Shown here in pieces: positions 44,671 through 45,508 of a stretch of DNA of 64,000 bases. Under the pieces are notes generated by a model. It was not told the origin of the DNA, ran no database searches, and saw only the letters and a list, made by a program, of their open reading frames with translations. The DNA is taken from assembly GCF_027921745.1 (NCBI RefSeq), contig NC_079238.1:5084001-5148000 (forward strand), read 5' to 3'. The number at the start of each line of letters is the position of its first letter. Position 1 is the first letter of the stretch. Both the position numbers and the translations under genes were made by a program. Source of the DNA: Schizosaccharomyces osmophilus. Lineage: Eukaryota.

Positions 44671-45508
44671 ATGACTGAAAAAAACAAATACAAAAAGCTA
44701 AAAGATGCTGATTCAGCTGACGTTCCTCGCTTGGGCACTCTTGCAACGTTTGACGGTGAACTGCCACGGTACAATGAAATCTTGAATTCTCATCTAGACG
44801 ACTTGGAAAAAGGTCATGCACCTCCGTACTCAGAAAACAGACATCAAGAAGCGTCTACCAACATGGCAGGAGGAAATATATTCTCTATTTCTTTACGAAA
44901 TGTCTTGACGGCATTATTGTGGTTAATTTTCTGGCCGGCAAAAATTGTGAGAATCCCCGAAGCACAACGCAGACAGGAAAATGAATCTGCTCGGCTTAGT
45001 TTTTGCTTTATTCTTTCGGTCATAGTAAACTTTTGGTTTTCTTACAAATACCTTGTCCCCTTTATAAAGGAATCGATGAAAGAATCTGTAGGGGTAAACT
45101 TTCAAGCTACTGTAGCAGCTGTTCTTGTCGTCATGGCTTTCTACATGTTTCTATATGTTTGTTCATGTAAGTGAAATGGTGGAATTTTAATTTGATATGT
45201 TTACTAATGGGGTACTTATAGTGTTGCTGGATTTTATTGCTTTAGTGCTTTCTGGGATTGCTTGGATTGTTTCTTGGATTATTGCTGCTCTTGGTTTCAG
45301 GATGTCGTCGGAAAGAAACGACTCGACGGATGGTAACTGGATCCCACTAAGCACTATGCCGGCAGAGTCTGAAAATCAATCCAACGATCGTAGTGATAAT
45401 ACTGCCGAACAACCGTCCTCTGAACATACCTCTGAACATACTGAGCAATCTCCAGGGTTGCGCCAGGAACCGGGTCAGTCTAGGGATGTTGAAAGCGGTG
45501 GGAATTGA
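44671..45508 (+). CDS. wag: wtf-associated (wag-type) membrane protein, 2 exons: 44671-45166, 45222-45508 (260 aa)
   Basis: GTAAGT..CTAAT..TAG intron joins two ORFs in frame; LPRY, DLEKGHAPPY, about 4 TM segments, acidic Ser-rich tail. Name is inferred from its position between wtf and 5S, not from an alignment. Confidence 0.7.

What the first reader, a model, noticed from the sequence alone, without database searches (positions are those of the whole stretch)
44671..45508. The wag-type partner has a Wtf-antidote-like N-terminus
It begins MTEKNKYKKL (compare wtf MKNKYTP) and carries LPRY and DLEKGHAPPY, a combination that resembles exon 1 of S. pombe Wtf antidotes, followed by TM helices. An internal Met (STNMAGG) just after the PY region would give a PY-less form, mirroring the wtf layout. 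Inference: wag may be an ancient Wtf relative acting as a second antidote, a ubiquitin-ligase adaptor, or an independent driver, so the cassette could be a two-gene drive system. I know of no established function for wag.
Basis: partly seen in the sequence, partly recalled or inferred. Interest (0 to 1): 0.8.

Follow-up and report, generated by a model that had tools for sequence, protein, structure and literature searches.

The report
Wag spore protein has pombe relatives
The uncharacterised gene beside a fission-yeast spore-killer gene belongs to an old family of membrane proteins that has overlooked relatives in the model yeast S. pombe; it shows no detectable kinship to the killer itself, is likely tagged with ubiquitin and sent to the vacuole in maturing spores, and can now be tested in a standard laboratory yeast.

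Summary
The gene is real: S. osmophilus SOMG_02330, 260 aa, one 55-nt intron, matching wag11 of De Carvalho 2022, in a 5S-wtf-wag-5S cassette. LPxY and D-x-x-EKG are kept in 29 of 29 Wag homologues. The 'KNKY' start is not: it occurs only in S. osmophilus (13 of 29), and APPY is no canonical PY motif. Wag shows no profile similarity to the neighbouring Wtf family (P 0.44; membrane cores at control level). Instead it matches two other families end to end: S. pombe SPCC1682.06/SPBC18H10.18c (97.7%, P 1e-11), although wag is published as absent from S. pombe, and DUF999 (95-98%, P 1e-8 to 1e-12), with a phase-1 intron at a similar place. The S. pombe genes rise late in meiosis under Atf21/Atf31. 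S. cryophilus holds at least 38 wag loci against 5 wtf, and wag-linked wtf genes poison and rescue without wag, so a two-gene drive or second antidote is unlikely. Best reading (0.5): an old family of late-sporulation PY-motif membrane proteins, likely sorted through Pub1/Pub3 to the vacuole, riding the 5S cassette. An independent selfish family stays open (0.2). No function was tested.

The parts
44671..45166 (+). wag11 (SOMG_02330) exon 1: cytosolic N-tail with PY motif, then helices 66-94, 104-135 and the start of 142-188
   Evidence: exon size 496 nt equals wag11 in the published GFF
45167..45221 (+). single 55-nt phase-1 intron (GTAAGT...TACTAAT...TAG)
   Evidence: splicing gives P0001 exactly
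45222..45508 (+). exon 2: hydrophobic repeat region (10-58 residues among paralogues), ALGF motif, acidic C-tail ending RDVESGGN
44761..44772 (+). LPRY, canonical PY motif (aa 31-34)
   Evidence: 29 of 29 homologues; LPQY in the S. pombe homologues
44800..44829 (+). DLEKG (aa 44-48) and non-canonical APPY (aa 50-53)
44863..44865 (+). Met65, possible internal start; no isoform evidence
   Evidence: 27 of 29; two out-of-frame ATGs lie between the PY motif and it
42508..43637 (-). five-exon wtf gene (P0048; matches osmophilus wtf20), divergent from wag; FLEX-like GTCAACAAACA in intron 1 at 43386-43396
   Evidence: length and FLEX offset match Supplementary file 1c
43638..44670 (.). shared divergent promoter region; FLEX-like GTAAACAAAGG at 43989-43999 (+)
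41676..41794 (-). 5S rRNA gene, left boundary of the wtf-wag unit
45839..45957 (-). 5S rRNA gene, right boundary, convergent with wag
40346..41203 (+). DUF999-family gene SOMG_02328 (265 aa, phase-1 intron 40785-40844), a remote Wag homologue placed like wag, convergent on a 5S gene; 'sag' g3010 in the published GFF
   Evidence: Pfam DUF999 E 3.6e-7; profile match to Wag
40050..40077 (.). two FLEX-type words in opposite orientation upstream of the DUF999 gene

Best explanation
wag11 encodes a member of an old fission-yeast family of PY-motif membrane proteins that includes S. pombe SPCC1682.06/SPBC18H10.18c and, more remotely, DUF999; it is likely made late in sporulation, likely bound through LPxY by the Rsp5-type ligases Pub1/Pub3, likely ubiquitinated on its N-tail lysines and sorted to the endosome and vacuole, and it likely travels with wtf as a passenger of the 5S-flanked cassette rather than as part of the drive. 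Shown here: gene structure, motif conservation, the two homologies, lack of detectable Wtf homology. Taken from papers: late Atf21/Atf31-dependent induction of the S. pombe homologues; wtf autonomy. Inferred: ligase binding, vacuolar sorting, and a role in clearing itself or partner membrane proteins in maturing spores (a Cos/Sna3-like sorting helper; that analogy rests on recall and one review passage).
For: Homology to S. pombe genes: a merged Wag+DUF999 profile run over 1.84 billion proteins returned 17 hits, among them SPCC1682.06 at E 1.6e-8 and S. pombe DUF999 at 1.1e-15, and no Wtf. Wag-only profile vs SPCC1682.06: 96% P 3.9e-9 local, 97.7% P 1e-11 global over 210 columns, reversed P 0.13-0.15; without the N-tail still P 7.5e-4 to 1.1e-3 vs reversed 0.11-0.17; LPxY, EKG, PA..R..EN, LG and the S-x-DVESG end are shared; it groups with Wag against DUF999 at 100/100. 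Wag vs DUF999: 90% P 1.5e-6 local, 94.9% P 1.1e-8 global, 98% P 1e-12 with extended sets; 0 of 70 block shuffles reach the score; motif-free cores P 2e-3, 0 of 50 shuffles; global P<1e-3 for 7 of 17 single DUF999 proteins, 0 of 22 Wtf, 0 of 20 window ORFs, 0 of 17 reversed; each has one phase-1 intron at the end of the same helix, same column in one alignment and 4 columns apart in another. PY mechanism: PY motifs bind Pub1/Pub3 and route membrane proteins to the vacuole (PMC10721834); every Wag has 2-7 lysines before the motif. Expression: SPCC1682.06/SPBC18H10.18c rise 5-6-fold at the last two pat1 time points, not in mei4 deletion, are induced 2.5-2.8-fold by Atf21+Atf31 and are listed as reduced in atf21 deletion (PMC2246291 supplements). 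Independence from wtf: 38 wag loci in the (cut) S. cryophilus GFF against 5 wtf, 2 with a wag partner; wag-linked wtf41 and cryophilus wtf1 poison and rescue alone; S. octosporus drivers wtf25, 68, 33 have no wag.
Against: No binding, ubiquitination, localisation or phenotype of any Wag was tested here or found in the papers read. HMMER with the Wag-only profile gives SPCC1682.06 only 10 bits (not significant) and the DUF-only profile 17.6 bits; only the merged profile reaches 50.7. S. pombe Wag-like vs S. pombe DUF999 as single sequences is not significant (P 0.31-0.46). The profiles are shallow (Neff 1.7-2.4) and part of each score comes from short motifs. A plain housekeeping role does not explain the large lineage-specific expansions, pseudogenes (7 of 21 in S. 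octosporus), mosaic N-tails and variable repeats, which look like conflict. Expression is borrowed from homologues about 100 million years away, and the two S. pombe probes probably cross-hybridise (234 of 242 residues identical). A PY motif on its own was not enough for vacuolar traffic in Wtf4 exon 1 (PMC11892871). Both structure models are low confidence (pLDDT 49.6 and 51.2).
Confidence: 0.5

Rival explanations
1. Wag (with DUF999) is an independent selfish family: an intrinsically toxic membrane protein kept harmless by PY-dependent ubiquitination, a present or former poison-antidote driver that spreads through 5S repeats as wtf does.
For: Lineage-specific expansions without wtf (38 loci in S. 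cryophilus), pseudogenes, a repeat region of 10-58 residues among paralogues recalling the Wtf repeats that set poison-antidote matching, the osmophilus N-tail spread over separate branches of the tree, copy-number variation of SPCC1682.06 in wild isolates (PMC3276172), Met65 kept in 27 of 29, and the published idea that one PY motif can switch a single protein between toxin and antidote.
Against: No intron or FLEX site for a poison transcript; Met65 is no more conserved than a third of the protein and is missing in some divergent members; the S. pombe homologues peak late, whereas a Wtf poison is made mostly before spores form; S. pombe holds just two near-identical copies among the hits; Wag paralogues are far more alike (55-89%) than Wtf paralogues (40-94%) in the core. 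Expansion can follow from 5S-mediated recombination alone.
Confidence: 0.2
2. Wag is a second antidote or co-factor of the adjacent Wtf: it co-assembles with Wtf poison and lends it a PY motif, making the cassette a two-gene system.
For: Fixed divergent arrangement with wtf, a PY motif, late expression like an antidote; intact wag-linked S. octosporus wtf genes have fewer FLEX sites (5 of 14 vs 25 of 34, P 0.02) and fewer poison-isoform reads (20/3108 vs 203/7457 pooled; per gene P 0.15).
Against: Antidotes neutralise only closely similar poisons, and physical linkage alone is insufficient; Wag has no detectable similarity to Wtf; wag-linked wtf genes work without wag; most cryophilus wag loci have no wtf. 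The wag-linked wtf genes largely form one clade, so the FLEX difference is not independent evidence.
Confidence: 0.1
3. Wag, DUF999 and Wtf descend from one ancestral PY-hairpin-repeat membrane protein, and Wag is a tamed, non-toxic Wtf relative (a statement on origin, compatible with the best explanation on function).
For: DUF999 and Wtf share PPxY..DLE at the start (P 1.3e-3) and NEEIELQ at the end (P 3.6e-5); global Wag+DUF vs Wtf P 1.1e-4 to 1.5e-4 against reversed 0.012-0.042; one Wtf scores 16 bits on the DUF999 profile over its second helix pair and repeats; two DUF999-like sequences (the unspliced-set member and P0070) touch Pfam WTF at E 0.009 and 0.022; all introns of the three genes are phase 1. 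True Wtf orthologues share as little as 16% identity, so a miss is weak.
Against: With the terminal motifs removed nothing remains: cores P 0.07-0.98, equal to reversed controls, in 20 exon-wise tests and 4 whole-core tests; Wag itself lacks EEIELQ; no Wtf among the 17 hits of the merged profile; short tail motifs can converge.
Confidence: 0.25
4. wag is a functionless passenger multiplied by 5S recombination.
For: Many pseudogenes and fragments; no phenotype on record for wag.
Against: PY, EKG and C-terminal motifs are kept across four species including S. pombe; regulated meiotic expression; deletion of SPBC18H10.18c was verified as long-lived in quiescence (PMC4291465).
Confidence: 0.07

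Closest known systems
wag family (De Carvalho et al. 2022, PMC9562144)
   Same: This gene is osmophilus wag11: exon sizes 496 and 284 nt, 838-bp gene, divergent from a 1130-bp wtf, between two 5S genes.
   Different: The paper gives no function, no motif analysis and states that wag is absent from S. pombe; here S. pombe homologues and a DUF999 link are found.
S. pombe SPCC1682.06 / SPBC18H10.18c (uncharacterised membrane proteins)
   Same: End-to-end profile match (P 1e-11), LPxY, DLEKGC, helix pair, repeat region, LG motif, S-x-DVESG end; a read-through record suggests an intron after the same helix.
   Different: 28% identity, shorter N-tail, no wtf partner known; two near-identical copies; whether they lie by 5S genes or LTRs was not checked.
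DUF999 family (Pfam PF06198)
   Same: PY then DLEKG-L, helix pair, one phase-1 intron, variable hydrophobic repeats, LG motif; multi-copy; meiotic and Atf21/31-inducible in S. pombe; in this window placed like wag next to a 5S gene.
   Different: About 20% identity; Wag members do not hit PF06198; DUF999 has a second C-terminal PY and an EEIELQ end, and S. pombe SPAC212.04c is a strong Mei4 target (149-fold) rather than a late gene.
Wtf antidotes (Pfam PF03303)
   Same: N-tail PY motif before membrane helices, DLE word, variable repeats, multi-copy on 5S cassettes; many wtf are also Atf21/31-inducible.
   Different: No profile similarity; 1 intron against 4; no intron-1 promoter, FLEX or exon-2 start; fewer hydrophobic segments; not needed for Wtf function.
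Rsp5-linked sorting membrane proteins of budding yeast (Cos/DUP240, Sna3)
   Same: Works-like only: small multi-copy or PY-bearing membrane proteins feeding the multivesicular-body route (one review passage, PMC10216265; rest recalled).
   Different: No sequence match (no such Pfam family listed); sorting of other cargo by Wag is untested.

Membership tests
wag | Two-exon gene divergent from wtf, between wtf and a 5S gene, homologous to annotated wag genes | tested here: met
   hits include SOCG_03723, _00982, _01136, _01438, _01871, _02079 listed as wag in Supplementary file 1k
Wtf | Sequence or profile similarity to Wtf proteins | tested here: not met
   P 0.44 local, 0.2 global; WTF not among 25 of 28 Pfam families shown for 29 Wag members, 10 of 22 Wtf hit it; S. 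pombe Wtf sequences themselves were not available, only the Pfam model
Wtf | Five or six exons with antidote-specific exon 1 | tested here: not met
   two exons; the intron lies after codon 165
Wtf | Poison transcript from an intron-1 promoter with FLEX site and a start codon near exon 2 | tested here: not met
   no intron before Met65, no scanned FLEX word in exon 1; transcript starts themselves could not be seen
Wtf | [quoted passage not shown] | tested here: met
   LP[RK]Y in 29 of 29
Wtf | Toxic short form, rescue by the long form, drive in heterozygotes | not testable with these tools
   needs expression and crosses
DUF999 (PF06198) | Match to the Pfam model at the gathering score | tested here: not met
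   not listed for Wag members or SPCC1682.06: Wag is a sister family, not a member
Wag/DUF999 superfamily (proposed here) | End-to-end profile similarity above reversed and shuffled controls | tested here: met
Wag/DUF999 superfamily (proposed here) | Shared intron position and phase | tested here: inconclusive
   both phase 1 after the same helix; 0 or 4 columns apart by alignment; 7 columns for the inferred S. pombe intron
Wag/DUF999 superfamily (proposed here) | Same fold | tested here: inconclusive
   models pLDDT about 50, pTM 0.22-0.23; no PDB match
Rsp5/NEDD4 substrates or adaptors | Conserved L/PPxY with nearby cytosolic lysines | tested here: met
Rsp5/NEDD4 substrates or adaptors | WW-domain binding, ubiquitination, ESCRT-dependent vacuolar sorting | not testable with these tools
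   needs pull-down and imaging

The most novel reading that the evidence does not exclude
Wag, S. pombe SPCC1682.06/SPBC18H10.18c and DUF999 form a second, over 100-million-year-old family of ubiquitin-switched toxic membrane proteins, sister to Wtf, so that the DUF999-5S-wtf-wag-5S block is an island of three related selfish or formerly selfish genes, and S. pombe carries unrecognised members whose toxicity would appear once the PY motif is removed.
Probability: 0.18. Interest if true: 0.88.

Novelty: new variant of a known kind. Interest (0 to 1): 0.6.

Why it matters
wag is the constant companion of the oldest known meiotic-driver family, yet has no function and was thought to exist only in species with few genetic tools. 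S. pombe homologues with expression, deletion and copy-number data already on file make the question testable at once, with the assays that solved the Wtf antidote (PY mutation, deubiquitinase tethering, tetrads). The link to DUF999 joins three orphan families and gives a first handle on a long-unexplained S. pombe multi-gene family. If PY loss makes these proteins toxic, they would be a new driver family or the stock from which wtf arose, a point De Carvalho et al. left open.

Tried and rejected
Wag-Wtf homology by profile: whole, N-tail, core, C-tail, exon-wise, local and global, all at control level. An idea of mine that Wtf exons 2 and 3 are duplicated hairpins, or that DUF999/Wag match Wtf exon 3-4, came from one 16-bit hit and failed at profile level (P 0.11-0.98; 2 of 60 shuffles above). 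DNA transfer from wtf to wag 5' end: 11 nt only. DNA similarity wag vs DUF999 gene: none (5 of 100 shuffles as high). AlphaFold on the Wag alignment and on the merged alignment: low confidence, no gain worth citing; Foldseek on PDB: nothing under E 1.8. ESM Atlas: no usable hit for P0001 or P0034. Complex prediction Wag with Wtf: not available, nothing was folded, no verdict. Sequencing runs: no RNA holder listed; the four laid runs cover wag, wtf and 5S paralogue pieces but hardly the single-copy neighbours, so they are not used for or against expression. No whole genome is held for this window, so paralogue DNA, dN/dS and synteny could not be computed. ATF/CRE word TGACGT: none in the wtf-wag promoter region, one inside wag exon 1. 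Earlier findings of the scan: none returned.

Full report
Gene and locus. The interval holds a two-exon gene whose spliced product is SOMG_02330 of Schizosaccharomyces osmophilus, 260 aa. It lies divergent from a five-exon wtf gene (43637-42508; product P0048) between two 5S genes. Exon sizes, gene length and the wtf length and FLEX offset match wag11 and wtf20 of De Carvalho et al. 2022 (PMC9562144; Supplementary file 1c and Figure 1-source data 5). Left of the first 5S gene sits a third gene (40346-41203, SOMG_02328) that passes the Pfam DUF999 cut-off; the authors' GFF calls the block 'Wag_wtf_sag_unit' and lists 8 sag-containing units in the part of the file held, but the main text has no 'sag' or 'DUF999'. 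I checked only this one sag against DUF999.

The observation. Among 29 full-length homologues (30 hits, one partial left out), LP[RK]Y and D[DN][LM]EKG are invariant. The KNKY start is confined to 13 of 15 S. osmophilus copies; the others and all S. octosporus and S. cryophilus copies start M-x-x-KE. The KNKY copies are not one clade and share only 11 nt with wtf (19 of 300 shuffles), so this likeness is recent and says nothing on ancestry. APPY is not L/PPxY. Met65 is kept in 27 of 29, as are 69 of the first 190 positions; no intron and no scanned FLEX word precede it. One TGACGT lies at 44718 inside exon 1, 1 of 11 in the window; two out-of-frame ATGs follow it before Met65. That S. pombe Wtf antidotes carry a DLEKG-like word near their PY motifs is recalled, not checked: no S. 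pombe Wtf sequence was available.

Is it a Wtf relative? Not detectably. Wag against 22 local Wtf proteins gives P 0.44; tails, cores and single exons are at the level of reversed controls. WTF is not among the 25 families shown (of 28) for the 29 Wag members, while 10 of 22 true Wtf hit it. An indirect link remains: DUF999 shares PPxY..DLE and NEEIELQ with Wtf, and global scores of Wag+DUF999 against Wtf reach P about 1e-4, but vanish when the end motifs are removed. Since genuine Wtf orthologues share as little as 16% identity, common origin is not excluded; I put it at 0.25.

What it is related to. Wag matches the DUF999-like family of the same genomes end to end: 90% P 1.5e-6 local, 94.9% P 1.1e-8 global, 98% P 1e-12 with extended sets; reversed controls 0.002-0.36; 0 of 70 block shuffles; cores without motifs P 2e-3 with 0 of 50 shuffles. 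I chose DUF999 because of its motifs, so the motif-free figure is the fair one. Both genes have one phase-1 intron after the same helix. A profile of 11 Wag and 10 DUF999-like proteins, run on 1.84 billion representatives, returned 17 hits; all 15 that could be named are Schizosaccharomyces proteins (names; P0080 is an unnamed record with a DUF999 match; P0037, P0013, P0047, P0025, P0033 were known hits), none a Wtf. The new ones include S. pombe DUF999 and SPCC1682.06 (E 1.6e-8) with its near-twin SPBC18H10.18c. Against the Wag-only profile SPCC1682.06 gives 97.7% P 1e-11 over 210 columns and groups with Wag at 100/100. Against this: HMMER with either single-family profile scores it only 10-18 bits, and the two S. 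pombe proteins compared singly are not significant. I rate the SPCC1682.06 link at about 0.9 and the DUF999 link at about 0.85. The published statement is that wag is absent from S. pombe.

How it likely works. PY motifs in cytosolic tails bind Pub1/Pub3 and send membrane proteins to the vacuole (PMC10721834). Wag keeps such a motif over four species with lysines beside it, so the same route is inferred. In Mata et al. 2007 the S. pombe homologues rise about 2-fold early and 5-6-fold at the last two meiotic time points, the late rise is absent without Mei4, they respond to Atf21+Atf31 but hardly to Mei4 overexpression, and are listed as reduced in atf21 deletion (single time courses, cross-hybridising probes). 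That is spore-maturation timing, later than Wtf poison. Deletion of SPBC18H10.18c is viable and long-lived in quiescence, with the twin still present; SPCC1682.06 is duplicated in some isolates.

Is it part of the drive? Probably not. Wag-linked osmophilus wtf41 and cryophilus wtf1 poison and rescue in budding yeast without wag; antidotes do not rescue non-cognate poisons; the three proven S. octosporus drivers lack wag. The S. cryophilus GFF lists 38 wag loci (30 rows seen; file cut) against 5 wtf, 2 with a wag partner. Wag-linked S. octosporus wtf genes have fewer FLEX sites (5 of 14 vs 25 of 34) and fewer poison reads (per-gene P 0.15), but are mostly one clade. Features that keep an independent selfish role open are the expansions, pseudogenes (7 of 21 in S. 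octosporus), mosaic N-tails and a repeat region of 10-58 residues (24 of 29 measured).

Literature seen. PMC9562144: outline, passages, sections 6 (part 1), 11, 12, 14 (part 1), parts 1, 2, 43, 44 of Supplementary file 1, searches in the GFF files (cut when stored; 31 other files not searched). PMC10721834, PMC11892871, PMC13123837, PMC7712723, PMC10216265, PMC4291465, PMC3276172 and the SOG preprint: passages only. PMC2246291: passages, supplement rows, one whole list. PMC9762604: abstract and section 11. Searches for 'wtf-associated gene'+'wag', 'DUF999'+'pombe', 'wag genes' and the two S. pombe identifiers showed no paper that links wag to these genes or gives it a function; subscription papers, theses, PomBase and bioRxiv supplements were not seen, and the label 'Schizosaccharomyces specific protein' suggests curators know of homologues in other species.

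Verdict. A real, already named gene. The PY motif holds; Wtf kinship and two-gene drive are not supported; the new content is the S. pombe homologues and the DUF999 link, which make wag testable. Interest 0.6; most novel open reading 0.18 likely, 0.88 if true.

Noticed in passing
window 40346-41203 (+): DUF999-family gene next to the cassette with N- and C-terminal PY motifs; locus tags of three osmophilus DUF999-like genes (SOMG_02328, _01244, _01160) are each two away from a wag gene (_02330, _01242, _01158), suggesting a repeated DUF999-wtf-wag block.
   Followed up: partly
window 40050-40077: Two FLEX-type words in opposite orientation about 270 bp upstream of the DUF999 gene; GTAAACAAACC counts as a confident hit in De Carvalho's table, and S. 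pombe DUF999 SPAC212.04c is induced 149-fold under Mei4.
   Followed up: partly
window 44718-44723 (+): ATF/CRE word TGACGT inside wag exon 1, 145 nt before Met65, in the osmophilus-specific N-tail; a weak lead for an internal late promoter (1 of 11 in the window).
   Followed up: no
PMC9562144 Figure 1-source data 6 (S. cryophilus GFF): Tandem wag copies about 3.8-4 kb apart with a 5S-sized rRNA and a 143-codon gene (SPOG_05705, _05712, _05727) between them, on the same strand as wag: a further unnamed cassette passenger where wtf is absent.
   Followed up: no
window 42508-43637 (-): All four introns of this wtf gene are phase 1, and DUF999 and Wtf end in the same EEIELQ word; an exon-duplication idea was tested and not supported.
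   Followed up: yes
PMC9562144 Supplementary file 1b: Intact wag-linked S. octosporus wtf genes have fewer intron-1 FLEX sites and fewer poison-isoform reads than the others; they may act mostly as suppressors (clade-confounded).
   Followed up: partly
window 52892-52991 (-) and 55925-56043 (-): A decayed 5S copy (below gathering score) and a third intact 5S gene without wtf or wag beside them in the ORF list.
   Followed up: no
PMC7712723 Table 1: DUF999 deletions appear among Meu5 targets; SPBPB2B2.07c deletion gave 29.8% type II asci and SPAC977.06 deletion was 'unable to sporulate', a possible spore-membrane phenotype for the sister family.
   Followed up: no
proteins P0071, P0074, P0072, P0077, P0082: Divergent Wag (SPOG_01294, SPOG_05031) and DUF999-like (SPOG_02382, SOMG_01161, SOMG_00738) members; accession numbers of SPOG_05031 and SPOG_02382 are consecutive, and SPOG_01294/_01295 are a Wag/DUF999 tag pair, hinting that the two families often sit together.
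   Followed up: no
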